A stretch of DNA of 63,020 bases, filler included, from Rhabdomonas costata (taxonomy: Eukaryota), in NCBI GenBank assembly GCA_019059605.1. It is 54 parts of 54 records of this genome, joined end to end, with 100 filler letters (N's around TTAATTAATTAA, not from the genome) between each part and the next. Parts side by side here need not be neighbours in the genome. Positions count along the whole stretch, not along the records: positions 11,695 to 12,763 come from JAHMHO010030263.1; positions 12,864 to 13,931 come from JAHMHO010030264.1; positions 14,032 to 15,100 come from JAHMHO010030265.1; 51 more parts are not named here. The stretch is one strand, 5' to 3'. The notes under the pieces are model-generated. The model did not search any database, was not told where the DNA came from, and saw nothing but the letters and a program-made list of their open reading frames with translations. Every line of letters begins with the position of its first letter. Within the stretch, counting starts at the first letter, position 1. The position numbers were made by a program, and so were the translations under genes. Positions 2,635 through 53,245 of this stretch are shown in pieces.

Positions 2635-5269
2635 GTGTCACCCGTTTATGAGGGAGTTGGGGTTTCAACGGGCTCGACGTAGAATTATTCCAAATCAGAA
2701 TGCGGTGTTCTCACAACCCTGAACGGGGTGATCAAATCTCTGTGAGATCAGAAGAAGAGGGACGAAACCGCAGCGCCCTCTTGGCACTGCGCAAAAACAA
2801 AGAGGTGTGGTGATGGGACTTTGCAGGATAGGAAAGGTTGATTCTCCATTTTGACTGCGACGGGTTTGAGACTGTTAGCCACACACACTCGCTCGGCCCG
2901 TCTATTGCTGATGCGGAACCTCTCAGGAAATGCAAAATGCGGTTCGGCCCTATGACCAAGGCTTCGTGATCTTTCAATGGTATGGCGCTTGCACACTGAG
3001 CTTATTGTTGTTTAGCTTCTTATGATAGCAAGTTTTTTTTTCGTTTGACGGTGCGTTTTGTCCTTCTGGGTGCCCGTTTGCCAAAAGTTTCCTTCCCCTA
3101 CCTCTCATTCTTCATTCTGTCAAGTGTGAAGGAGATCTCACTGTTGTTATGCTCAAGTGTTTTCTCTGGCTTGGCGCTTTTCTGCAGCCATGCCTTTGAG
3201 TGTCCGGTTGTGAGTGTTGTGGCCATGCTTGTGCCAGAGCACCCAGGGCTGCTGCAACCTGCACCGCCGTTTTGTCGTGACTTGGTGAAAAGCTACGCAT
3301 AAGCCAGCGCGTTATGCGCACTACACGCGGACGCCCACAATGATGCTTGCCTCATCCGAACTGTTTCCAAGGCTATTCTATTTTGCGGCCTGGCCGCAGG
3401 TGGCACGAGNNNNNNNNNNNNNNNNNNNNNNNNNNNNNNNNNNNNNNNNNNNNTTAATTAATTAANNNNNNNNNNNNNNNNNNNNNNNNNNNNNNNNNNN
3501 NNNNNNNNNAACCAACCGAGGCGATCGCGTTTGAGTGTTCTGCATTGTTCGGCAACGTGTGATCATTTTTCATATCTAAGTTTTTTCTCTCTTTTTTGGC
3601 CCTTTTTGAGGTTGTCTTTGCTAAAAAGGGGTCTTTTCCATGCAGTAGCGGATGGCCTCGCACCCCCCCCCCCCTGATTTAGACAATGTTGGCGCTGGAA
3701 AAGGCAGGTTTCGACGCCCCAACATTGTCTTTTTGCAGGGGGGAGGGAGGCGGGCAGCTCCAACGGGGTTTTGGGGTAATCGGGATAACGTTTCAGGCAA
3801 ATGGAAAGCATATGGGAAACGGAATCGAATGGCTCAAAGTATTTATAGCACGTTACACCGTTACTCAGAACACGTGCTTTTTAGCCTCAGCAGCATGACA
3901 ACGTTTAAAGCATATCGTATGCATCCATACAAGCCTAGCGGCATTTTATAGCGTTCCCAGGACTTCAATTGGAAACTCGTAACATACTAAATCCTGAGTT
4001 CCGGGATGTAATTTACCTTACGTATAAAGACAGGGGAAGAAAGGGGAGCCCACCACACCTCAACCCGTAGTGAGCCATCATTTCCGCGAATTCCCGCAAC
4101 AGGGGCACTTCCGGGGCGGCCTGGGGCCGAGACGGGCCTGATGCTGGACCTTCTGGGGGGTACAACGAGTGCGGCGGGACCCCCCACATAGGTGTGTGCC
4201 CCCCAACCCGCGAAGCCCACGGAGGAGACAGCGGATTCAGCAGAGAGGGCGACAGTGTGAGGGTCAATCCAAACCTCGGGGAGGAGGAGAAGCTACAAAT
4301 TCATTCTAAATGTACCCAGCCCTTAGAATATGTCTATGTATTCGAACATCTCAGAATGAAACAGCAATGAAGGGCCTTCGGAGGGGGCTATCAGGGGGTC
4401 AGCAAATGCCGATTAAACCTCTTGTCAAGTACCACCACAACTTAAAATCGGAATTTCTGAGGCAAAATGTCAGCTCCCCAAACGACCCTCCTCCCCACCG
4501 AAAGCCAGACTGGCCACAGAGCGACGACGGCCTCAGTGCCAGGCGCGCGCGGGGCACCAACCGCAGGTACACCACCACANNNNNNNNNNNNNNNNNNNNN
4601 NNNNNNNNNNNNNNNNNNNNNNNTTAATTAATTAANNNNNNNNNNNNNNNNNNNNNNNNNNNNNNNNNNNNNNNNNNNNAAATCTGATTTATTCATTGAG
4701 ATAGACGATAGCAAGAGACAGACTCGCTTCGAACTGAAATCACGGTTTCGAGCAACGAATATGGAGAGGTGGCTGAATCGCAAGGGAAGGGCTTTTTAAA
4801 GCTGTCAATTTTCCGAAAGAAAAAAGACAAATCTCAAAATGAAAAGGATCCAAAATCGGCATACAATCCTGCATCTCGGTCCCCTCTCCCCCTCAAGGAT
4901 CAATGTCGGGACAATCTGCGCAGATTCTGTTGGCCTCTTTCGTACTGACTTTTCGAGGTTGGGAGGGTGAGTTCGAAGAGGCAGCGGCAATCCAAGCGCA
5001 AACGTTGCCTATCTTTGTTTTGCTTGATTTTGGCTATTTTTGAGCATTTGTTGGGGATTTTTGACGGAATAAAAACCTAAATTCTCGGTCCTCCTGGGGA
5101 CTGCACAAGCGAGCAAGGGAAGGCCACGGTAATGGAAAGAATAACGCCGTGGATATTTTATTTCACCTACCCAGGAAATGATCAATAATCATCGCTTGTC
5201 AAGGTTTCCAAACCGAGAGGGAAAGAATCAGTCGAAATGCCTCCTGTTACCTTTTGCTGCGCTTCAACC

Positions 5270-5505
5270 CTGGTTTTTCGAGCATTCATACTGTCTGCAC
5301 ATGGCCCTTGGCGTCAAGAAAGCATTTCCAATAGTTTCTTGTGAACCCCACTTTGTACACGTAACTATCCAGATGGGTGATTAGATCCGGGAGGAGTCCT
5401 TTTTTCTCCCCAAAACCTGTCTGTCGGTCAAAAAGTGTTCGCGTTTTGACAAAAAACCCATGCTTCCAAAAGTAGGTGAAATCCCGGTGTCCACAACGAT
5501 ATCTG
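5270..5505 (-). mobile_element. Possible decayed restriction-like endonuclease (REL) region of a non-LTR retrotransposon, inside an intron
   Basis: Minus strand reads DIVVD, then after a frameshift YFWKHGFFVKTRTLFDRQTGFGEKKGLLPDLITHLDSYVYKVGF. This resembles the HD.VV...GF.V...PDL REL pattern. Stops and frameshifts are present. Confidence 0.3.
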
Positions 5506-5649
5506 AGGGAGCCCTAGACAATGAGTCAAAGAAAGTCCGGAATTATTTGTCAATTCTTGCCAAGAAAAGAATCCTTTTTAAACTGAGTTTTATCAAATAC
5601 AGACACGATGTAAAACGAAGGGTATGCGTACCACATTCTTCCACCGTAC

Positions 5650-5748
5650 CTTTATTCCAATCGGGGCTTTAGCCTGGACCAATGCCTGCACCAAATCCAG
5701 AGGCACGTCGGGGTGTTTTGCCACGAGGTGCAGGATGGTGCACTTCCC
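5650..5748 (-). CDS. Ankyrin-repeat exon (partial)
   Basis: 33 codons, GKCTILHLVAKHPDVPLDLVQALVQAKAPIGIK, followed by an AAG|GTACGG donor. Confidence 0.7.
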
Positions 5749-8700
5749 NNNNNNNNNNNNNNNNNNNNNNNNNNNNNNNNNNNNNNNNNNNNTTAATTAA
5801 TTAANNNNNNNNNNNNNNNNNNNNNNNNNNNNNNNNNNNNNNNNNNNNGTACTTTGAGGCGTGTCACCGTGGTATAGTTTCTTGATTGAGCAAGTTTTTT
5901 GGGGAGATGGACTATCATGTCCCAGGAAAGCTGAGAAAGTGATACCCCAGCGAAGACGGACGAAGCGTAAAAGCCGTCCCCTTCAGTGCGACAGTCTCTC
6001 TCGACAGCAGCCGTTAACAGCGAAGGCCAATAGGGTCAATCAGACGGTATAGTCCCTGGTGCCCGTGCGGAACGAGCCCAATGGGATATACCCTCCGGCG
6101 GATAGATACCGCACAGCCGTCAAGAGCACGCGCGGACACACCCGGCATTCCTTCGAACGCACAGCCCGTTGCGGTGTTTTACCATGAACCGAAAATTTTC
6201 GATGTTTCATGAAATTCCTCCAGTTTTGGAAAAAATCGGTTTTGGCGAAGAGGGATCCAATCCCCGCATCGCACTGCTCAGCTCCATGAGATTTATTGTG
6301 CTACTTACTCCGGAAGACCTGGTATATGTTGAACTAGGCGCGGAGTTCTATTGCTGGAGTTGATTTCTCTTGTTCTTTGTGGAACTTTTGGTGCTTTCTT
6401 TGCTGTATAGGCAAATGCATTACACGCAGGCAAGCCGCAGCGCCATTCAATGAGAAGAATACTGCGGAACACGAAATAGGACGTCGTACGACGAATATGG
6501 ACATAAAAGCAAGCAACCTTCCATTTGCATCCAAAATCAATACACAAAGGTCTCAGAGTCTCAAAGCCCCACCACGTTGCCAGGCTATGTTTGCACCATT
6601 CAGTTTATATAGATCACACTGCAGAGACGAGGTAATGCCATTTTTCAAGGAAGAATTCACAATTGATAATAACATGACATTTTATCAGAGCTTTTTTTTA
6701 CTTTTTCTCTAAGTCAAATGCAAGAATCCAGATATACACCCATGCTTCTCAGACTGTCTGCTTGGCTTCAAAATATGGTTTTGGTCGTAAAAATGATCTT
6801 GTATCCAGATATGCGCATTATCTCTTCGGTGTTAAGATCTGACTAAAAATCTGGAAAAAAAAGAATAACAGAATTCAAATAGTTCATCAACCGCCATAAA
6901 CAGAATTTCCACAGCANNNNNNNNNNNNNNNNNNNNNNNNNNNNNNNNNNNNNNNNNNNNTTAATTAATTAANNNNNNNNNNNNNNNNNNNNNNNNNNNN
7001 NNNNNNNNNNNNNNNNGGGTTTGTTGCATGATTGCTTGTCTTTTCCGATGAGGTTTATCATTCAGAGGGGGTTCGGTTTGTTCGGAAAAGAGTAGAGACA
7101 CGCCTCCAAGAGGTGACCGTGATGTGACCCCACTCGCATTGCCACTTACATAGGCGGCCCCGTTGCGGTGGGATTTCCCTGCCACAGAGATACATATAAA
7201 TAGTGAAACCGTGAACCCTCCTGCCATCTGCCCGCAAAATGTTGGTAATTCATGGGGTCCAGATTTGTAAGCGACTAGGGTCGAAAGTCGAATCTTGACC
7301 CTGACGTCCGTCATGGCCATGGGTGATGCGGTGTGATCCGGAGTTTTTTCACCCGGATGGTGGCGGATGGTGGCTTTTCCCGTTGAAAACGTCCCGCAGC
7401 ATTTTTTGGCCGTGTCTGTCCTTTGTTTCCCTGTGTCATTATGTCAAGCGACAATGGGGAGGAGGAGCTGGACTTGGATGCCCCTACCCCAGACGTGAGT
7501 GAGGTTGCGCGGTGGAAGATCAAGGTGTGTGTCAAGGAGTGATTAACTCCCTGAACCGTTTTCTTTTTTTTCTTTTCAGAAGGAAAAGAGTGCGTTATGT
7601 GGGCGACAGTTCTTTCTCTTAGCGTTTCTGCGTTTGCGTCTGGTGAACAGATCGAGGGTGGCATTGAGGCCGAGGTGGAGGTTGGGGAAGACTCTGCGCC
7701 ATGGTACTTCCCTTTCTTCCTTCTGCCTTCTCTTCCCTTTTGCAGTGTCCTCTGTTTCTGGAGACTCCCGAGGTGGTGATGTGGTGGGGAGAGCCGTGCC
7801 CCTGTCGCATTGCTTTTTCGCTGTCGTGGGCAAGCAGTCAAGTGTTTTTGTCTGGTTTCTTATGTGCGCACCCCCTGCTCCTCGTGATGTCCTTGCCAAT
7901 GAGGGTTAGGTTTAGGTTCTGAGGTTCTCTGCCGCTGGGGGGGGGTCCACGTGTGGGTTCACCTGATATGAGGACAAGAAGGGCAGAAACTGGAAGCTCC
8001 ACCAATGCTTTTGACCAATGCTTTTTGCCACACGCAGGTACGTCCACGCCATTGTCAACAATGGAGTCGATCACCACCAACCACCNNNNNNNNNNNNNNN
8101 NNNNNNNNNNNNNNNNNNNNNNNNNNNNNTTAATTAATTAANNNNNNNNNNNNNNNNNNNNNNNNNNNNNNNNNNNNNNNNNNNNGGTGTGGGTTAGACG
8201 CTTAGCACCGCTGGAGGTTTGGTTCACGCGTGTTGGACACCACAAACACACTATTCAGAACACTATTCACAACACTATTAAGCTGAAGAGCGATCACTGC
8301 TGAGCTGAACACGGGGGGGGGGCGTCTACTACACGCAAGCCGAAGGTTAAGCACTGTTGAGCAAAACGTGTCCGTATAGGGGGTGGAAAAAACAGTATAC
8401 GTAACACCAAATAAAGACATTGAAACAAATTTGGAGGGTTAGGAGCCCCGGTGCACCAAAAATACAGTAGCATCGTCACGGGCTCTTTCAGTACTGCTAA
8501 ATGTTCTGCATTGCCAAATGGAGCATCGTTCACACCGAGGAACGTCCCAAACCAGCCGCCCGCTCCAACCGGCCGCGCCCCGGACTTGCTTGTGCCTCCA
8601 AATTTGTTGTTAGGAAAGCTAAGCTAAGCTAAAAAAGCTTTTTCACTCCGAACGGCGAACGCCCCTCCCCCCAATACAATCTTCCCCCCAATACTACGAA

Positions 8701-9467: not shown

Positions 9468-10525
9468 AGGTGTTGTTCCCCAATTACGTATTCATGATGG
9501 GCATAACCCGTCATCTCAGAAGCTCGCAGTGACGTGCCAAGCTCTCTTCCCTTCTGTCTCTCCCTTTTGTCGCACATAATGCACATGCATTCATTCAGAC
9601 AGGCAAACAAGCAGACTCTCAGACAAAAAAAAGAGACCGGCAGGGGGGCCGTTTGCCGTCCCAAAGCCAGTTTTCGGTTGCCGCGGCAGGCTTTCAATGC
9701 TTTTTCTGCTTCTCTTACGCGCACGCTCCGAGTCACGAGTCACGAGAAGTTATAGGATACCTCTGTAAACCCAGTTGTCAGCCACAGCATCTATCCTGGT
9801 GGAGTGGCGACGCGTGCAATCCGTCGCCCCTCCAAGAGCTGTCTTCCGTTCGTTCGTTGGACGCCGTGCAAAACCCTGCCCTGCTGGTCCATAACCTCCG
9901 CTGGTCGAATCTCAACATGGCGTACGCGGGAATCAGGGTTAAAAAGATACAACAGAGCGAAAAAGAAAAAGAAAACCGTCCAAAATCAGCAGAGGCTCAT
10001 CAAAGGTTCCCCCAGAGTATTCCGGTGGGCCAGAGAACTGGGGGTGTTAATCAAAAAGCTGCCCAGAAAAAAGGGTCCACCCTACAACCGATTGAATCTC
10101 ACAGAGGTACAATGTACAGAGGTGAGGTCCATTCCGGTGCCTAGGGTCAAGCGGAGTGCTCGGGGTAGAGCTTGCCGCCCAGGCTGCGCAGGCCGAGGTC
10201 AATGGAGAGCACCAAGAAGCCCACGGAGAGGGCATGGCAGGCGGGGTACCGTGGGGTCAGCGCGGCAAGACCCAGGCAGAGGTCCTCACATGTCACCCCA
10301 AACTTTCCTTTTTGGAGGTTACCAACAAACAAAAAGAAGTGCGCTGTTGACGCCATGCAGAATGGAACAATTGTTGGCAGCAACAGTGGCGGGAAATAAC
10401 AACAACACCCAACCACACCCAACACNNNNNNNNNNNNNNNNNNNNNNNNNNNNNNNNNNNNNNNNNNNNTTAATTAATTAANNNNNNNNNNNNNNNNNNN
10501 NNNNNNNNNNNNNNNNNNNNNNNNN

Positions 10526-11694: not shown

Positions 11695-12084
11695 GTTGCT
11701 CGAGGTACGATTGTGTGGGGCGCCCGCACTCTGGACGGCAACAGCAATGACTACCGCTACGTCCAGGTTCGGCGAACCCTTATCTACGTGAATCAGTCCA
11801 TCGAAATGGGTCTGCAGCAGTTTATTTTTGCACCCAACGATGGTGACACGTGGGCGGCTGTCACCGTGATGGTAAGTGACTTTCTTACTGACCTATGGAA
11901 AGATGGCGGTCTGATGGGCGACAAACCCAGCGATGCTTTCAGCGTTCAGTGCGGACTGGGCAGCACCATGACAGCCCAGGATATTCTGGACGGCCGCATG
12001 ATTGTTTCGGTGCTGCTGCAGATCATCAGCCCAGCTGAATTCATTGCCATCACCTTCACTCAAAAAATGCGTGCCTGCCTTTGA
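11695..12084 (+). CDS. Contractile tail sheath protein, C-terminal domain (eCIS/Afp-PVC-type; 5'-truncated by the contig edge)
   Basis: Open from the first base of the contig: VARGTIVWGARTLDGNSNDYRYVQVRRTLIYVNQSI...FIFAPNDGDTW...FLTDLWKDGGLMG...AFSVQCGLGSTMTAQDILDGRMIV...PAEFIAITFTQKM. Sheath hallmarks are WGART, YRY..VRR, PND..TW, GLG.TMT..DIL.G and PAEFI. Confidence 0.95.
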   Translation, partial: VARGTIVWGARTLDGNSNDYRYVQVRRTLIYVNQSIEMGLQQFIFAPNDGDTWAAVTVMVSDFLTDLWKDGGLMGDKPSDAFSVQCGLGSTMTAQDILDGRMIVSVLLQIISPAEFIAITFTQKMRACL

Positions 12085-14040
12085 CTCGGGGGATCTTCAT
12101 GGTGTTGTGAGGCGCTTGTGAGACTCGGCATCTTCCCTCCAGAACATAGTGAACCTTTGAATGCTGAATGTACTTTTAGGTGGGTGAGTGAGTTGCATGA
12201 TGCGTGCACACTCGCGACTGGGCGACTGGCAGTGCTTTTCGTGCCTTTTTGCTGCTCACTGGGAAATGGGGGATGTGTGATTTCTTATTGCTCGACTGAT
12301 GACCTTGTGGTCTTCGGTCTTCGGTCTCAATAATTTAATTATCCGGCAACAACTCGACACCCTCAGGGTGCTTACAACAAGCGTTGCAGGACTTTTTATC
12401 ACCCAGAATTGAAGTCGATTGTCATACATTAAGTCAGGTCAGTCCACAAGCGCCCGCAACAAGTTCAGAAGCACAGATTTTTGGATTCCCAGAAGGTAAC
12501 GGAAAAGGTGGGAAACAAGTTCACTTAGCACAAGAATTGCTTTTTTTTCTGGGAACCGCATGTGTCCACTGGACCTGCTTGGCTCAAGAGATGGAGGGAT
12601 TGGTTTTTACCAGACACTGAAAATTGAAACGAAACGCAGAATGCAAACTGACGCTCGATGACGCCCAAAACACTTGATGCTGCTTCTTTTGGAGCACCCA
12701 ATGCCAACACGAAACAAATAGGAGACTCTTCGCGCGCTCCACGTCTCATTTCACAAACAACCCNNNNNNNNNNNNNNNNNNNNNNNNNNNNNNNNNNNNN
12801 NNNNNNNTTAATTAATTAANNNNNNNNNNNNNNNNNNNNNNNNNNNNNNNNNNNNNNNNNNNNGTGTTGGGTGTGGTTGGTTGGGTTGTTCCTGTAGTTA
12901 TCTGAATTTAGCACGGGGGAACGATGGATCGGTTGGGTTTTTTTGTTTTTCATTTGATCAGGCACAGTTTGCCCGCGCCCTTCTTTTAAACCTGTCCTCT
13001 CTCGCGTTTTTTTCTCTTCGTATGACTCCAAGAACGCACGAGGGTGGGGAGTGCAAAGCCTCCCCCAGGGTAAGGGAGTTATTTATTAGAGAGTTTTGAA
13101 GAAATGTGTGGGTAAGGTATTTGGAGAGACCTAGGGAACTTCTGGGGAGGAGGAGGTCCACTAATGGAGGCAACCCCGATGTCGTCAGGACAAAAGGTTC
13201 ATTTGCCCAAAAACCGATCTTCGGCACTCTTTTTCTTGATTGGTGCCGAATAGTTCGTGGAATAGGTCTGTCGACTTCGAAAACTTTGAAGACTCCCCCC
13301 CCCCAAAGTGCCACTTCAAGGCCTTTTCAGGTAATGACCATGCTCGACCATGCTCAAGTTCTCAGACCGAAGCCCTTAGTGTGTCCAATGATGGCACCCA
13401 AGTCACTTCAGACCTACGCCTCGTATTTATCAGACCTTCTGAGCAGCTTTCATGCTTTTTTTTTTTTTGCCTTTCTGTATTTTTTCGCCGTGCAGGCTGT
13501 TCCAGGCTTGCAGATCCCCGTACCCCCGAACCAGCGGGAGGACCCGAATTGGGAAGTGGCAATGGCTTGACCTTTTCACTGTATGCGGGGCCTGCGCAGT
13601 GCGCAGTGATTACCCACATGGCTGCCCGGAGGCTGTTCAGTCTCGCCTCGTTATGTGGTGAGACACGGATCTCCTTCCTTCACCACTGCACATGGGTGCA
13701 GCATAACAATCGGAGCCGCCTCTTCCGAGGCGGTGTGCTGTAAAATTCGCTTTGTTTTGTCTGCTTGAGGTGGTTTGACTGTTGGTATTGTGATAACTTG
13801 GCTATTGTGCTCGAGTGCAGTGCATCTTGTCGCGTTCACTAGTATTTGGTATGGAGAAATAGCCCGGTTTGCCCGTTTCGCTAATCTGTCGTAACTGGTG
13901 TTTCAATTCGGTGGTGGTTTTCTCGCAAGCANNNNNNNNNNNNNNNNNNNNNNNNNNNNNNNNNNNNNNNNNNNNTTAATTAATTAANNNNNNNNNNNNN
14001 NNNNNNNNNNNNNNNNNNNNNNNNNNNNNNNGTTGGTGGG

Positions 14041-17438: not shown

Positions 17439-18825
17439 NNNNNNNNNNNNNNNNNNNNNNNNNNNNNNNNNNNNNNNNNNNNTTAATTAATTAANNNNNN
17501 NNNNNNNNNNNNNNNNNNNNNNNNNNNNNNNNNNNNNNGGGTGTGGGCAAAGTGCGAAAATCTCTTAAATCTGGCGCAGTGTGTCAAAAGCACAACAAAA
17601 GCAGTCGTCCGGCAAGAAATAAGCTGGCACAAAACCAAACTGCAGTCCGATATAAATCGTTTGGTTTTCTTACATCCAGGGCACAAGCAACAAGCAAACC
17701 CCTCCACTCAGTGCCTGCATGAGTGATGATAGTGTGTATGCATGCGTGTCTGAGTGCATGTGTGTGTGTGCTTGTTTCCCCCAAAAGGCAGTCTTGTAAG
17801 TGTGGGTTTCACTCCCGATTGCGGTGATGGTACACCTGTGCTGCAATGTAATGTAATAAAGTGATCAATTTGCCATAGCCTGCAACACGTAAAGAGCGCA
17901 CAATTAGCAAAAGATGATGGAGAGTCAGGGCGGGAGGCGAGACGAGGGGAGGGGACCTGCATCAAGGAGAAGGGGTTGACGAACTGTCTCAGAAAGGGCT
18001 CCATCTCCCTCCGCACGGGCACCTGTCGGACCAACTCCGAGGAGGAGTGCAGAAACCGCGGCTGACGTCCTGAGCCCAGGGGCTGCAGGGTGTCCAACAC
18101 TTGCGCCGCAGTAGGCTCCAGGGGTTCCATCAACCACGCCCCAGAGCCAATGCACCGCGCATTCACCTGCGCGGACCCCCACGGCACATAGCATAGTGTC
18201 GGCCCATGGCACGAGTTGATTTTCACCCACTTCCGCTGAAGGAGAAGGGCAATGAGACACACCGGGGGGGGGGGAGGCACAGGGGCACCTTGCCGGAGGT
18301 GTTCCTCACCAAGAGATCCACAAAGGCGGCTTTGGCTCGGCTGAGGAGTCCTGAGCCTCCGTTGAAGGTGTCATAAGCCTGCTGCGACATCATCACATCC
18401 CCGCCGCGGCTCAGCGGGAGAACTGCATTTCACAAACAAAGAAGGGAGGGGCTCCCGCGAAAAAAAGGGAGGGGGTCTCAAGTTTTTTATTGGAACACGC
18501 GGGAAACGCGGATTGCCCTCGACCCCTCCCCCCCTCCTTCCCTTTGCAAAAACGTCCACGGGAATACTCTCCGTCAAAAGCCAACAAACACCCAAACACA
18601 CCCCACANNNNNNNNNNNNNNNNNNNNNNNNNNNNNNNNNNNNNNNNNNNNTTAATTAATTAANNNNNNNNNNNNNNNNNNNNNNNNNNNNNNNNNNNNN
18701 NNNNNNNGTGTGGTGTGTTTGGGGTGTGGGGTGGGAGCCCCTGTCCTATTTTTCCATGTTTTTTCCTCTCAGTTTTTATACACCCTTTCAGGTTTTTATG
18801 CTGTCATTGGGTTGCTTGTGCGCAG

Positions 18826-19554: not shown

Positions 19555-20237
19555 GTGAGCACTTTTTCCAAGTCTTCCCCCTGTTCATGTGCGCAGCCGC
19601 TCGTTCGCCCACACGCCCACAGTGCACTTTACCTCCCAGCTCAGAAAGTAACTTCAACGAAACAGTATTTATAAGGGTGTTTTGCGTTTGTCAAGTGATC
19701 TGGGGTGCCCATTAATTTGGTTCAAGTAGCGCGTTTTATTACCACTTGAAATCCTTACCAATCCCCACCCAACACANNNNNNNNNNNNNNNNNNNNNNNN
19801 NNNNNNNNNNNNNNNNNNNNTTAATTAATTAANNNNNNNNNNNNNNNNNNNNNNNNNNNNNNNNNNNNNNNNNNNNGTGGTGGGTGTGTTTGGGTTTTGG
19901 GGGGATTCGACAAGACCAACTTCCGAAATTTTGGTCTTATGTGTTTGATTGAACTTAAGTTACAATGAAATTGACATACTTTCACACCTGCCCAGAAAAG
20001 ATCAGACGTGACTCAAACAGAAAACCTGTTGCAAAACAGTTCCGGCAGGCTTTTCGCTCACGTCCTCGGTTGACGTCGTCGTACACCGTTTGTCCTGGGC
20101 TGCAGCTGTCAAAAACTTTCGCAGCTCCACCTGCAACTCCACAACCTCTTGCGAATTTGTCCTCTGAACACGTTGGGATGAAATCATTCCTCTGATTCCA
20201 AAAACAACAAGAACTTATAAGCTGAGAAATCAAGTAC

Positions 20238-50167: not shown

Positions 50168-51469
50168 NNNNNNNNNNNNNNNNNNNNNNNNNNNNNNNNN
50201 NNNNNNNNNNNTTAATTAATTAANNNNNNNNNNNNNNNNNNNNNNNNNNNNNNNNNNNNNNNNNNNNGGGTTTGTTATGTCTCTGTGCTGCGCTCGCGGG
50301 CATTCGAAATGAGAGTTTTGCTTTTTGGTGGGTTGAGGATAATTGGTTGAATCGGCTCAGCGGCAGTGAATATGAAGTGACCTTCATCTGTGACCCGCTC
50401 CACTCCACACCATTCTCCAGACTTCTCTCGCTATTGCTTTTTTCTCTGCTGACTACTGAGCCAGGCTCACAGTGGACCGCTGTCACCTTGTCTCTCGTCG
50501 TCCACGCTTTTCTTGCGGGTTTTCCAAAGTGGGTGGATCCTGGAGGGTCCTGTGCAATGCGTAATGCCCCTTTGGTTTTAGCAGGTGCTGGCGCATAGCG
50601 AAATGAGAACGGCTCAATTACCTGGCAGTCATCCATCACATCTTCAGTCGACGTTTTGCGGCAGATTTGTCACAAGTTGTCCATATCTCAGGGACCAGAT
50701 TCAACACCATTCTGAGCAGCATTCAATGATATGACCTTCCTCTTCTATCCTCCCTCCGGCTAATTCGGACCCCAGGGGTGGAGTGCTTCGCACGTCTTTG
50801 GCTCGGGACAATTGTTAACCGCCACAAATTTTATCCTTAGGCTCAAATTATGGGAGCTCAGGATCGTAGCGTAAAGGCGGCGAGGGTTGCACGACAATGG
50901 CACAATGATTTCTGCTTCTGGAGGTCTCTGCGCGAAAATATATGTGCAGCAGGTGATTTTCCGTCTGTGGTTCTCCAGGTATGCGAGTTTTTGTTCTCTG
51001 TGGGAAGGGGAGGAAAGCACTAGTAGGCTTCTGTGATGGCTGATGCGGCAGCTGCGGGGCCATCTACGGAGCCTCGTGTCCCGACGGGGCCACCGAGGGG
51101 CGCAGTGTCTGGTGCAGGTGGGCGTTGCTGGATCCTTTGGTGGTTACTTTTTTTTGCTTGGTGTGCAATAAGTCACTAGTTGCTGCTGGCCAACCACTGC
51201 CGGTTGTTGTTGTCGCGTTAAAGTTGCTGTACATGTCACTAATGCAACGGAGAAAGGACACAATAGCATACAAAAAGTCTTCGAGTTCGACATCTCACCG
51301 TTTCCTTCACGGTTGAGCTAGTCTTCACTTGACCGANNNNNNNNNNNNNNNNNNNNNNNNNNNNNNNNNNNNNNNNNNNNTTAATTAATTAANNNNNNNN
51401 NNNNNNNNNNNNNNNNNNNNNNNNNNNNNNNNNNNNGGGTGTGGGTCGGGGTGGCGCAGGTTGGCGCAG

Positions 51470-52253
51470 GAGGTGAGGCTGGAGAACTGCACCGATGCCG
51501 GGGTAAAGGAGTTTGTTGAGGATAAGTTCAACGAGCCTTTCTTCAAGCCCGGCGAGGTACGCGGGGAATCTGGGCTGCACCGGGCTATCAGTCAAACAGT
51601 GATTCGGGACAACGGTCTCCTCCACCGTTGGGAATTGTTTTTGTGAACTTCTTGCATCGCTAAGTCCAGCCTTCCACTGTGGGTGTCCGGATTTAGGGTG
51701 TTCTCGGTTTCGTTGAACGCCACGTGGGTTCGCCTGTCTTTCCCACCGTTGGAAATTCCTCCTTTGAATCCTTTGCATTTTTTAAGCCCACCATTATAAT
51801 GTTAGCTGTGTCTGGATTTACAAGTTGAGAATGGGAGGAGTCTGAGCATGCATTAAAAGTGTCATTGGGCCCAAAGTTCCGCAGAGGTTCACGTGTAATC
51901 CAAAGAAAGAAATTTCAGAACCCCCGAACTCCATTCTAGCAATACAGTAAGTCGTGGATTACCATTTTTGGAGATGGCGCCATTCTCGCTTGTGCCCTTG
52001 TTACAGCCCAAGTACCTGTGGAGGGTCTGGGTGCTCACCAACGTGCCCTGGGGGGGCTGCCTTCTGGTCTTCCGTGTGCACCACTGCACCTCGGACGGAC
52101 AAGCGATGACGCAGGTGACCAAGAACATCTTCTTCACCGACGCGCAGAAGGCCGCCGGGGCCACTGCCCCGACTCCGAAGCCCAGGAAGGCTGTCCAGGC
52201 GTCGTCCATGAACTGGGGGAAGGTTTTCAAGACCTCGGCCGCGGTGGCCGCAG
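51470..52253 (+). CDS. Wax ester synthase/diacylglycerol acyltransferase (WS/DGAT-like), exons 51470-51556 and 52007-~52253
   Basis: ...KEFVEDKFNEPFFKPGE|PKYLWRVWVLTNVPWGGCLLVFRVHHCTSDGQAM contains the HHxxxDG catalytic motif preceded by P.LW. The 3' exon boundary is uncertain. Confidence 0.75.
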
Positions 52254-53245
52254 GCGCCGCGTTGGGTGTGAATCGAGCTGCAATCAGACCTGCAATTTTT
52301 TTCTATTTTATTCAGAACTCTCCTTGTGGGTGACCACGCTTTGGGACCGAGGGCCCTCTCGGTAAGTTTTGAGCCTCGGAGTGAGGAAGGCCGGGATCCC
52401 CAGTGTGGATCATTGCAAAAGCAGAGCAAAGCAAGCCAACGTATCCATCACTTTCATAGTATCGTGCCTTCATCCCATGACCGGAAGTTGTGCCCCCCAA
52501 ACACCNNNNNNNNNNNNNNNNNNNNNNNNNNNNNNNNNNNNNNNNNNNNTTAATTAATTAANNNNNNNNNNNNNNNNNNNNNNNNNNNNNNNNNNNNNNN
52601 NNNNNGGGGGTGCAGGTTTCTATTCTGAAAGCCAGCAGTATTGACTCTTCGACACATCACTCGCCAAGGGAAGAGATCACGGCATGGTTATTGCAGGCTG
52701 GCGTCTGTGGGGCATCCGAACAGGTGCGTATGCACGCCGAATTCGGAAACATTGTCCAAATCTGTCCATCCCTAGGTCGATTTCCCTGAATTTCCCAAAT
52801 TACGCTCTAAATTCTTATTGCTACCTTACCTTACCTTACAATGGAAGAGGGATTTGATGCTCCTTGATGCAAAAAAAAACTTGTCTGTGTTGTTCACACT
52901 TTACAAAAAGAAAGGACAATGATTTGCAGCAAAAGCAGAAACTTAGGCGAAGAAAAAGGGGGGAAACTGGGAGCAGGTGGCAATGGAGGGGGTTCAGACG
53001 CATTCATTTTCAGAGAGTTGGTTGCTGAGGGAAAGGGAATATAAGCAGAAGAAGAAAAGAAGCCAAACCGAAAGCCAAACCGAAAAAAGCTGCTTGATGC
53101 GAATTCCCCCTTTTCGAACGCCCCCTTACGTTCCGCGATGTGCCTAAGCTCGCATAATTCCCGGATCTTAGGGGAGCTAAGTAACAACACTTTTTCATTA
53201 CTGTTTGCCGATTGTCATGCACCATGTTTTCGCCGCATTTTGGAG

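What the first reader, a model, noticed from the sequence alone, without database searches (positions are those of the whole stretch)
11695..12763. Bacterial contractile-injection-system sheath gene in eukaryote-looking DNA
Seen: an undisrupted ~129-codon sheath C-terminal domain running from the contig edge to a stop at 12084. The next ~680 bp have no RBS-led gene or tail-tube ORF and resemble the non-coding DNA of the other contigs (T-tracts, only spurious ORFs). Similarity ends at TFTQKM, directly followed by C|GTGCC at 12071, a possible intron donor. Established: WGARTLDGNS, GLG.TMT..DIL.G and PAEFI..TF.QKM are typical of eCIS sheaths (Afp/PVC/MAC/T6SS-iv-like) rather than T6SS TssBC, and in bacteria these genes sit in compact operons beside tube genes. 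Inference: a horizontally acquired, possibly domesticated sheath gene in a protist nucleus. If tube, baseplate and spike genes also occur in the genome, this would be a eukaryote-encoded injection apparatus. Speculatively, it could instead be a repurposed polymer, for example in extrusome-type organelles.
Basis: partly seen in the sequence, partly recalled or inferred. Interest (0 to 1): 0.88.

Follow-up and report, generated by a model that had tools for sequence, protein, structure and literature searches.

The report
Bacterial-type sheath gene end beside euglenid-like DNA
A 1-kb contig joins the intact end of a bacterial injection-system sheath gene to DNA that looks like the euglenid host's own, so it is either a rare gene transfer into a protist or an artefact of amplifying DNA from a culture that also held bacteria.

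Summary
Window 11695-12084 encodes the last 129 residues and the native stop of a contractile-injection-system or phage-type tail sheath (Pfam PF17482; solved CIS sheaths E~1e-40). It keeps 49 of 51 highly conserved columns. No database protein is more than 77% identical. The suggested intron donor is not needed, because the protein ends where its homologues end.

The 679-bp flank has no gene and no trace of tube or baseplate genes. Its oligonucleotide signature matches the other 53 contigs and was reached by none of about 1,600 bacterial test windows. Those contigs are euglenid: one carries two exons 99-100% identical to a Rhabdomonas costata protein.

The contigs also bear G/T-primer ends typical of whole-genome amplification. 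The published draft of this species came from amplified DNA of a culture that also held bacteria. No matching sheath protein of that species appeared in the protein collection. The fragment has no intron, and its GC3 (0.62) differs from the one host gene measured (0.81-0.90).

My estimates: real nuclear integration 0.38, amplification or assembly chimera 0.32, wholly bacterial contaminant 0.20. Read mapping, junction PCR and a spliced-leader transcript would decide. None could be run here.

The parts
11695..12081 (+). 3' part of a CIS/phage-type tail sheath gene: 129 codons, equivalent to residues 392-517 of a 520-aa relative. The 5' ~1.2 kb lies off the contig.
   Evidence: It keeps 49 of 51 columns that are >=90% conserved among 80 relatives. 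GC is 0.538 and GC3 is 0.62.
12082..12084 (+). Native TGA stop of the sheath gene.
   Evidence: The C-terminal tail after QKM has the same length as in Nitrospirillum L001. PDB alignments end 2-3 residues before the chain ends.
12085..12751 (.). Non-coding flank with the oligonucleotide signature of the euglenid contigs.
   Evidence: The longest open frame is 93 aa. There is no homology to eCIS neighbourhood genes. The order-3 Markov log-likelihood ratio is +0.029 bits per base, which is the 38th percentile of host windows. It is reached by 0 of 1089 bacterial windows (overlapping windows from the same 22 loci used), 0 of 447 high-GC bacterial windows and 0 of 73 E. coli windows. CpG o/e is 0.75, equal to the host's 0.75, against 1.04 in bacteria.
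12100..12109 (+). A run of 10 G/T-only bases, 16 nt after the stop, oriented like the left end of an amplicon that would end at the contig's right end. It may be coincidence or may mark an amplification junction.
   Evidence: The contig has 2 internal runs >=10, against a mean of 3.85 per contig in the window. By my estimate the chance of such a run this close to the stop is about 5-10%.
12752..12763 (-). A 12-nt G/T-only terminal run: an amplification-primer-type contig end.
   Evidence: Of 108 contig ends in the window, 64 start with >=10 G/T-only bases, and 0 start with >=10 A/C-only bases (control).

Best explanation
The coding part is the intact 3' end of a contractile-injection-system (eCIS-type) tail sheath gene of bacterial ancestry. 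It belongs to a clade dominated by Alphaproteobacteria (Azospirillaceae, Sphingomonadaceae) and Acidobacteriota. The most probable single reading is that this gene lies in the nuclear genome of the euglenid that supplied the other contigs (Rhabdomonas costata or a very close relative), after horizontal transfer. The gene keeps its own stop codon and runs straight into host-type non-coding DNA. Shown: the family assignment, the intactness, the native stop, the lack of any neighbouring CIS gene in the flank, and the host-like, un-bacterial composition of the flank. Inferred: that the join exists in vivo. If it does, the conserved residues mean the gene was either acquired recently or is kept by selection. 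In that case the product would polymerise into a helical sheath-like tube through the conserved C-terminal strand-exchange region. It could do so together with tube and baseplate genes elsewhere in the genome, or alone, like the stand-alone sheath paralogues of Nitrospirillum. Artefact and contamination readings together are about as likely as this one.
For: Flank composition: the order-3 Markov log-likelihood ratio (host model minus bacterial model) is +0.0345+-0.018 for 106 host windows and -0.032+-0.016 for 152 bacterial windows. The flank scores +0.029. No bacterial window reaches that value: 0 of 1089 windows (overlapping, from the same 22 loci), 0 of 83 low-ORF bacterial windows (a subset of those 1089), 0 of 447 out-of-sample high-GC windows and 0 of 73 E. 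coli windows. Six E. coli intergenic regions are all negative. The result holds at Markov orders 1, 2, 4 and 5 against the GC-matched bacterial model: 0 of 172 GC-matched windows each time. Flank CpG o/e is 0.75, as in the host. The flank is non-coding: only 4.5% of 333 GC-matched bacterial windows have so short a longest open frame. No tube, baseplate or other neighbourhood gene remnant is present, and no + strand terminator follows the stop. Relatives are compact. Where a tube is present it starts a median 54 bp after the stop, and the Nitrospirillum loci show coding periodicity immediately after the stop. The bacterial-type sequence ends right after a complete reading frame, which a random breakpoint would do rarely (my estimate is about 0.1-0.2). 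The contig holds no internal copy of the amplification primer: the best match is 12 of 18, within the 11-14 range seen in all contigs. None of the other 53 contigs looks bacterial. Of 126 ORFs >=110 aa, only 5 besides the sheath hit Pfam, and none of the 10 longest does, so contamination in this size class is low. The coding part scores more host-like than 79 of 80 homologous bacterial segments (weak, and it depends on the Markov order). Its GC3 of 0.62 is below all 47 relatives with >=66% identity, whose minimum is 0.71. Euglenids of this species are reported to hold bacterial-derived genes that carry spliced leaders (PMC8219788, passages read).
Against: The contigs are amplification products. 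Of 108 contig ends, 64 begin with G/T-only runs, and 5 carry a sequence that matches, with 2-3 mismatches, a universal WGA primer recalled from memory. [quoted passage not shown] One of its two DNA samples was 16S-PCR positive, and only the transcriptome was decontaminated (Methods read). The contaminant transcripts named there include a Magnetospirillum-like bacterium, which I recall belongs to the same order as several close relatives of this sheath. A G/T 10-mer lies 16 nt after the stop, in the orientation of an amplicon start. No protein more than 77% identical exists among the hits of two searches of the 5.8-billion-cluster collection. That collection does hold this species' transcriptome-derived proteins, as the RCo002743 hit shows, so no expressed sheath was recovered. 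The fragment has no intron in 390 nt. Six host genes carry 43 complete or partial introns in 8,448 nt (Table 2), which gives about a 0.14 chance of none at that density (my calculation). Its GC3 of 0.62 is far from the 0.81 and 0.90 of the only two host exons I could measure. No sheath gene in a eukaryote nucleus is described in the listings of four literature searches.
Confidence: 0.38

Rival explanations
1. Chimeric molecule or contig. A fragment of a culture bacterium's sheath gene was joined to euglenid DNA during whole-genome amplification, library preparation or assembly, so the join does not exist in any cell.
For: The contigs are amplicon-bounded (64 of 108 ends have G/T-primer runs). 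Primer-like sequence sits at 5 contig ends, against 0.16 expected. A G/T 10-mer lies at 12100-12109, 16 nt after the stop, oriented like the start of an amplicon that would end at the contig's G/T-run right end. The published draft of the species combined a bacterially contaminated amplified sample with a cleaner one. The coding part has no intron, has a GC3 unlike the measured host exons, and has no matching host protein in the collection. The composition switch is compatible with a junction anywhere in 11695-12088.
Against: No internal universal-primer sequence marks a junction: the best match is 12 of 18, as in ordinary contigs. The contig's 2 internal G/T or A/C runs are fewer than the window mean of 3.85. 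A random junction would rarely leave a complete reading frame with its native stop and no neighbouring bacterial sequence. Bacterial DNA appears rare among contigs of this size: none of the other 53 looks bacterial.
Confidence: 0.32
2. Plain contamination. The whole contig, flank included, comes from an unsequenced bacterium or its prophage-like element in the culture, and the sheath gene is followed there by an unusually long non-coding stretch.
For: The culture of the species was not axenic, and genome contigs were not reported as decontaminated. All 120 best hits listed in each of the two protein searches are bacterial or metagenomic. The gene is intact, intron-free and of ordinary bacterial length at its C-terminus. 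The flank GC (0.477) is lower than the gene GC (0.538), as is usual for bacterial intergenic DNA. Moderate-GC members of the same clade exist, such as Pyrinomonadaceae with GC3 0.72-0.74 and Magnetococcales with 0.56. Its terminal branch (0.46) is long but not unique in the tree.
Against: The flank's oligonucleotide signature is host-like and was reached by none of the bacterial windows tested. These were 1089 overlapping windows from 22 loci, including 83 low-ORF windows, plus 447 high-GC windows, 73 E. coli windows and 6 E. coli intergenic regions, all negative or lower. Only 4.5% of GC-matched bacterial windows are as free of open frames. There is no + strand terminator, no promoter and no next gene. 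Relatives are compact after the sheath. No bacterium or metagenome holds anything closer than 77%. Neither the junction 27-mer nor a flank 30-mer occurs in the metagenome contigs, and there is no relative in the viral contigs.
Confidence: 0.2
3. Gene of a reduced intracellular symbiont of the euglenid, whose genome is decaying and poor in genes.
For: This would explain an intact bacterial gene beside gene-free DNA, a long branch, and co-purification with sorted cells.
Against: Nothing in the passages and sections of PMC8219788 that I read mentions a symbiont, though I did not search the paper for that term. The flank matches the host nuclear signature, including CpG depletion, and not a separate genome. 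No other contig of the window looks like such a genome.
Confidence: 0.05

Closest known systems
Solved CIS-type sheath proteins: PDB 9r9h chain T, 7adz chain 2A ('putative phage tail sheath protein FI'), 7b5h (All3325). Afp2/3/4 (6rao) and Pvc2/3/4 (6j0b, 6j0n) are more distant.
   Same: The C-terminal domain aligns end to end: query residues 2-126 against the last ~125 residues of each chain, at E 4.9e-41 to 9.6e-39, and 1e-28 for Afp2/Pvc2. The WGARTL, GLGxTMTxxDIL and PAEFIxxxFxQKM blocks are conserved.
   Different: Only the last quarter of the protein is visible. No tube, baseplate or spike gene is adjacent. The gene abuts eukaryote-like DNA and not an operon.
Stand-alone sheath paralogue of Nitrospirillum (P0002, labelled 'cytoplasmic fibril protein' by NCBI for N. 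viridazoti Y2; loci L001-L003, L005)
   Same: This is the highest identity found anywhere, 74-76% over 126-128 residues. The C-terminal length is identical. The gene is not next to a tube gene: none lies within +-6 kb, its flanks are LysR/LysE and Fer2/MoCoBD genes, and the genome's one gp19-type tube match lies on another contig.
   Different: The Nitrospirillum genes have GC3 0.81-0.87 and are followed at once by coding sequence. The tree does not resolve whether the window groups with them or with operon-type genes such as Niveispirillum L007.
Operon-type eCIS loci of Alphaproteobacteria and Acidobacteriota (e.g. L004)
   Same: The sheath is 73% identical.
   Different: There the gene order is sheath, gp19-like tube, second tube, CIS_tube, then a VgrG-like spike, and the tube starts a median 54 bp after the sheath stop. 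None of this lies downstream in the window.
T6SS sheath TssB/TssC (VipA/VipB)
   Same: Contractile sheath principle (established knowledge).
   Different: There was no Pfam hit other than PF17482 and no TssC chain among the 16 PDB matches. It is not a member.
Bacterial-derived nuclear genes of euglenids confirmed by spliced leaders (e.g. thiamine-pathway enzymes and ferrochelatase in R. costata, PMC8219788)
   Same: Bacterial phylogenetic affinity in a euglenid data set (passages read).
   Different: Those are metabolic enzymes with transcripts and spliced leaders. For the sheath, no transcript or spliced leader is known and no host protein was found.

Membership tests
Phage/CIS tail sheath family | C-terminal sheath domain (Pfam PF17482) above the curated threshold | tested here: met
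   50.8 bits against a cut-off of 26.9, E 1.9e-13, covering profile positions 3-103 of 104. PHROG tail sheath 9.8e-31.
Phage/CIS tail sheath family | Conserved extreme C-terminal strand region (PAEFI..F.QxM), used for subunit linkage in solved sheaths, with the native chain end | tested here: met
   49 of 51 columns that are >=90% conserved are kept, and the tail length equals L001. PDB alignments run to within 2-3 residues of the chain ends. The linkage role is recalled knowledge and was not tested.
Phage/CIS tail sheath family | N-terminal and central sheath domains (Pfam PF04984) | not testable with these tools
   The contig starts at the equivalent of residue ~392 of 520. No whole genome is held.
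Extracellular contractile injection system (eCIS: Afp/PVC/MAC/AlgoCIS type) locus | Sheath gene in a cluster with gp19-like tube, baseplate (gp25, gp6/J-like), spike (VgrG/PAAR) and AAA+ ATPase genes | tested here: not met
   No tube or other neighbourhood homology lies in the 679 bp downstream (best 24.3 bits) or in any of the other 53 contigs. Upstream is off the contig, and the rest of the assembly could not be searched.
Extracellular contractile injection system (eCIS) locus | Sheath sequence closer to eCIS sheaths than to phage or T6SS sheaths | tested here: met
   The top PDB matches are CIS-type sheaths, the only other sheath entry scores E 0.0094, and there is no TssC. The 73%-identical relative L004 sits in a tube/CIS_tube/VgrG-like operon. 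No relative was found in the viral contigs.
Nuclear gene of the euglenid (horizontally acquired) | Physical linkage to host-type DNA | tested here: inconclusive
   The flank is compositionally host-like and un-bacterial. It holds no identifiable host exon or repeat, and the join could be an amplification artefact.
Nuclear gene of the euglenid (horizontally acquired) | Host-type transcript (spliced leader, polyA) or a protein in the species' transcriptome-derived set | tested here: not met
   There was no hit above 77% identity in two searches of a collection that holds this species' EukProt proteins. Raw RNA data could not be searched.
Nuclear gene of the euglenid (horizontally acquired) | Host-type gene structure and codon usage (introns, GC3) | tested here: not met
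   There is no intron in 390 nt, and GC3 is 0.62 against 0.81 and 0.90 in two exons of one host gene. The reference sample is very small, and a recent transfer need not meet this feature.
T6SS TssC/VipB | Match to TssC-type sheath families or structures | tested here: not met
   There was no such Pfam or PDB match.

The most novel reading that the evidence does not exclude
A free-living euglenid (Rhabdomonas costata or a close relative) carries in its nucleus, and keeps under purifying selection, a bacterial contractile-injection-system sheath gene. Two forms are possible. The gene may be part of a transferred set that builds a eukaryote-encoded contractile device. Or it may be a stand-alone self-assembling polymer, like the orphan sheath paralogues of Nitrospirillum, reused for example in an extrusive or cytoskeletal structure. 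As far as my four literature searches show (listings only), this would be the first sheath gene of this family encoded by a eukaryote.
Probability: 0.2. Interest if true: 0.85.

Novelty: new member of a known kind. Interest (0 to 1): 0.45.

Why it matters
Contractile sheaths of phage tails, tailocins, T6SS and eCIS are known only from bacteria, archaea and their viruses. A sheath gene maintained in a eukaryotic nucleus would show that this machinery, or at least its self-assembling polymer, can cross domains. It would also offer a molecular candidate for some protist extrusive or fibrillar structures of unknown composition. If the contig is instead a chimera or a contaminant, it is a useful warning. 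In assemblies built from amplified DNA of cultures that also hold bacteria, a bacterial gene beside host-like DNA on a 1-kb contig is not evidence of transfer. Either way the sheath comes from an unsampled lineage, at most 77% identical to anything in a 5.8-billion-cluster collection.

Tried and rejected

Steps that gave nothing:
- An exact look-up of the 129-aa product found no record of it.
- A Rfam scan and a tRNA scan of the whole window found nothing.
- A leave-one-out Markov model of the host alone had no discriminating power. I replaced it with a host-versus-bacteria likelihood ratio.
- A change-point analysis could not place the composition switch more finely than 11695-12088.
- blastn of the contig against the other 53 contigs found only 12-17-nt chance matches, so there is no shared host repeat.
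- Two exact-pattern scans of the metagenome contigs, one with the junction 27-mer and one with a flank 30-mer, gave 0 hits.
- The viral-contig scan found no relative.
- The protein-atlas call on the WS/DGAT ORF confirmed the family but gave no host taxon.
- A motif grep did not locate the ADH_zinc_N ORF.
- A second batch of 10 protein-like ORFs yielded only the WS/DGAT hit, so host codon usage rests on two exons of one gene.

Readings rejected:
- The intron donor at 12070/12071, because the C-terminus is complete.
- A pseudogenised tube gene in the flank.
- T6SS membership.
- The Magnetospirillum-like or Tolumonas contaminants named in PMC8219788 as the source. Nothing closer than 76% was found among species representatives. 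This is an inference, because I did not search those genomes individually.

Papers:
- PMC8219788: I read the outline, Methods part 1, the intron section and term passages.
- All other papers: search listings only.
- The supplements of PMC8219788 (GC and CAI histograms S54-S55, intron tables S2-S6) were not opened. They could bear on host codon usage and on whether any transcript maps to this contig.
Full report
**What the window is**

The 63,020 bases are 54 separate contigs of 1065-1072 bp joined by N/TTAATTAATTAA spacers, so this is a length-sorted slice of a very fragmented assembly. The finding is exactly one contig, 11695-12763. No whole genome is held for the window. Everything below therefore rests on this contig, its 53 neighbours and public collections.

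**The gene**

- Frame 1 is open from the first base for 129 codons and stops at TGA 12082-12084.
- The product matches Pfam Phage_sheath_1C at 50.8 bits (cut-off 26.9), nearly full length, and PHROG tail-sheath families (best 9.8e-31).
- It matches 16 distinct PDB sequences. The best are CIS-type sheaths: 9r9h at 4.9e-41, 7adz at 3.2e-39 and 7b5h at 9.6e-39. Afp2-4 and Pvc2-4 follow. No T6SS TssC chain appears.
- It corresponds to residues 392-517 of a 520-aa relative, so about 1.2 kb of the gene lies off the contig.
- In an alignment with 80 bacterial relatives it keeps 49 of 51 columns that are >=90% conserved, which ranks it among ordinary functional members.
- Its tail after QKM has the same length as in Nitrospirillum L001.
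- The stop is therefore the native one.

**Relatives**

- Two searches of the 5.8-billion-cluster protein collection found 1882 hits at E<=0.001 among 1968 candidates of 227-2000 aa, and 178 hits among 183 candidates of 70-226 aa. No hit exceeded 77% identity.
- The exact sequence is not on record.
- Among species-representative genomes, 145 of 281 pattern matches encode a relative. The best are Nitrospirillum at 73-76% identity, then Niveispirillum, Novispirillum, Sphingomonas and Acidobacteriota.
- A quick maximum-likelihood tree (81 rows, 129 columns) puts the window in an unresolved 49-row clade with SH-aLRT 95. It has no supported sister. Its end branch is 0.46 against a median of 0.17, which is long but not unique.
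- No relative appeared in the viral contigs.
- L004, 73% identical, has the classic order: sheath, gp19-like tube, second tube, CIS_tube, VgrG-like spike.
- A tube hit follows the sheath in only 42 of the 78 loci that have >=700 bp downstream. The two shorter loci also had one.
- The closest relatives, four Nitrospirillum loci, have no tube within +-6 kb. In L001 the sheath gene lies between LysR/LysE and Fer2/MoCoBD genes, and that genome's single gp19-type tube match lies on another contig.
- So 'always beside a tube gene' is too strong. Bacterial relatives are compact all the same. Tubes start a median 54 bp after the stop, and the Nitrospirillum loci show strong codon periodicity immediately downstream.

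**The flank**

Window 12085-12763 has these properties:

- No open frame exceeds 93 aa.
- There is no sigma-70-like promoter and no + strand terminator.
- Nothing scores above 24.3 bits against 8,685 ORFs from the 80 neighbourhoods.
- Only 4.5% of 333 GC-matched bacterial 679-bp windows have so short a longest frame, against 10.9% of 55 GC-matched windows from the other contigs.

I then scored windows with an order-3 Markov likelihood ratio. The host model was trained on the other 53 contigs with leave-one-out. The bacterial model was trained on 22 loci of 40-60% GC. The two classes separate well:

| Test set | Score or windows reaching the flank |
|---|---|
| Host windows (n=106) | +0.0345+-0.018 |
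| Bacterial windows (n=152) | -0.032+-0.016 |
| Flank | +0.029 (38th percentile of host) |
| Bacterial windows, overlapping, same 22 loci | 0 of 1089 (maximum 0.026) |
| Low-ORF bacterial windows (subset of the 1089) | 0 of 83 |
| Out-of-sample high-GC bacterial windows | 0 of 447 |
| E. coli K-12 windows | 0 of 73 |
| E. coli intergenic regions | all 6 negative |

Markov orders 1, 2, 4 and 5 against the GC-matched model give the same picture, with 0 of 172 GC-matched windows reaching the flank each time. With a bacterial model built from all 80 loci the separation is poorer, and 0-8 of 193 windows reach the flank. Flank CpG o/e is 0.75, as in the host, against 1.04 in bacteria. The flank is therefore host-like and not merely non-coding.

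**The coding part**

- GC is 0.538 and GC3 is 0.62.
- All 47 relatives with >=66% identity have GC3 >=0.71.
- With sheath genes masked from the bacterial model, its likelihood ratio is about 0, higher than 79 of 80 homologous segments.
- That shift depends on the Markov order, and I treat it as weak.
- The position of the composition switch cannot be resolved within 11695-12088.

**Who the host is**

- Of 126 ORFs >=110 aa in the window, only six hit Pfam: the sheath, ADH_zinc_N, ARL2_Bind_BART, WS_DGAT_cat, DUF6844 and Kelch_1.
- None of the ten longest ORFs hits anything.
- There are no tRNA or Rfam matches.
- Contig 51437-52505 carries two exons, 51461-51556 and 52004-52237. They are 100% and 98.7% identical to EukProt protein RCo002743 and are separated by a GT...AG intron. 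That id style is the one used for Rhabdomonas costata transcripts in PMC8219788.
- The other contigs are therefore euglenid nuclear DNA, and none of them looks bacterial.

**Signs of amplification**

- 64 of 108 contig ends start with >=10 G/T-only bases, against 0 with >=10 A/C-only bases as a control.
- Five ends match, with 2-3 mismatches, a universal WGA primer that I recalled from memory, against 0.16 expected.
- The finding contig has such an end on the flank side (12752-12763) but not on the gene side.
- It has no internal primer copy: the best match is 12 of 18, and all contigs range 11-14.
- It has a G/T 10-mer at 12100-12109, 16 nt after the stop. By my estimate the chance of that is about 5-10%, so it is a flag and not a proof.

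For background, I read the Methods and other passages of the published R. costata draft. It used FACS-sorted or microdissected cells from a culture with uncharacterised bacteria. It used a whole-genome-amplification kit, and one of the two samples was 16S-positive. The authors assembled with SPAdes into 143,763 contigs (N50 1194, GC 51.6%) and decontaminated only the transcriptome. They also report bacterial-affiliated genes that carry spliced leaders and so are genuine host genes. I do not assert that the window is that assembly.

**Weighing the readings**

- A wholly bacterial contig is hard to square with the flank composition and the lack of any gene or terminator.
- A chimera fits the amplified, bacteria-containing source and the G/T run at the boundary. 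But there is no internal primer, and a random junction would seldom spare a complete frame with its native stop and leave no neighbouring bacterial gene remnant.
- A real nuclear integration fits the flank and the clean boundary. Several observations count against an old, host-adapted gene:
  - No host protein was found in a collection that holds the species' proteome.
  - There is no intron in 390 nt, although six host genes carry 43 introns in 8,448 nt. My estimate of the chance of none is about 0.14.
  - GC3 is far from that of the one host gene measured.
- A recent transfer escapes those objections but has a lower prior.

My estimates are integration 0.38, chimera 0.32, contaminant 0.20, and reduced symbiont or other about 0.10. 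These rest on rough priors that I cannot verify.

**Novelty**

Four literature searches returned no paper describing a sheath gene in a eukaryotic nucleus. I judged from their listings, and one search found no paper at all. The term 'cytoplasmic fibril protein' gave nothing relevant. As a sequence, this is a new and fairly divergent member of a known family. Its possible eukaryotic location is the only unusual claim, and it is not established.

Noticed in passing
whole window; e.g. 2224-2241, 10409-10426, 12863-12880, 18592-18609, 19876-19893: 64 of 108 contig ends begin, read from the end inwards, with >=10 G/T-only bases, against 0 with A/C-only bases. 46 of 54 contigs have this at one or both ends. 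Five ends carry a near-copy of a G/T-only universal amplification primer, recalled from memory. The contigs are essentially amplicon-bounded, and untrimmed primer sequence remains in the assembly.
   Followed up: yes
window 51437-52505: Two exons of a wax-ester-synthase/DGAT gene (51461-51556 and 52004-52237) are 100% and 98.7% identical to EukProt RCo002743. They are separated by a GT...AG intron of about 447 bp. Exon GC3 is 0.81 and 0.90. This ties the window to Rhabdomonas costata or a very close relative.
   Followed up: yes
L001 4774-6390 (also L002, L003, L005): Nitrospirillum carries a stand-alone sheath paralogue, labelled 'cytoplasmic fibril protein' in one strain. It lies between LysR/LysE and Fer2/MoCoBD genes, with no tube gene within +-6 kb. 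The genome's single gp19-type tube match is on another contig. About 600 bp of unannotated sequence with coding periodicity and no Pfam match follows the sheath. In all, 36 of 78 relatives had no tube hit directly downstream, though divergent tubes may have been missed by tblastn.
   Followed up: partly
window, ORFs >=110 aa (positions not determined): Single ORFs match ADH_zinc_N (9.6e-10), ARL2_Bind_BART (6.9e-07), DUF6844 (1.7e-04) and Kelch_1 (6.1e-04). I did not locate them or ask whether the ADH and DUF6844 fragments are host or bacterial.
   Followed up: no
window 5849-6916, 4680-5748, 1-1070: These three contigs have the lowest host-versus-bacteria likelihood ratios of the 53 other contigs (-0.010, 0.002 and 0.004). 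Two of them are the most AT-rich contigs. They hold no long ORFs. They may be organellar or simply atypical host DNA.
   Followed up: no
window 12309-12328: A short tandem GGTCTTC repeat lies in the flank, and a T8 tract lies at 12541-12549. Neither has an evident function.
   Followed up: no
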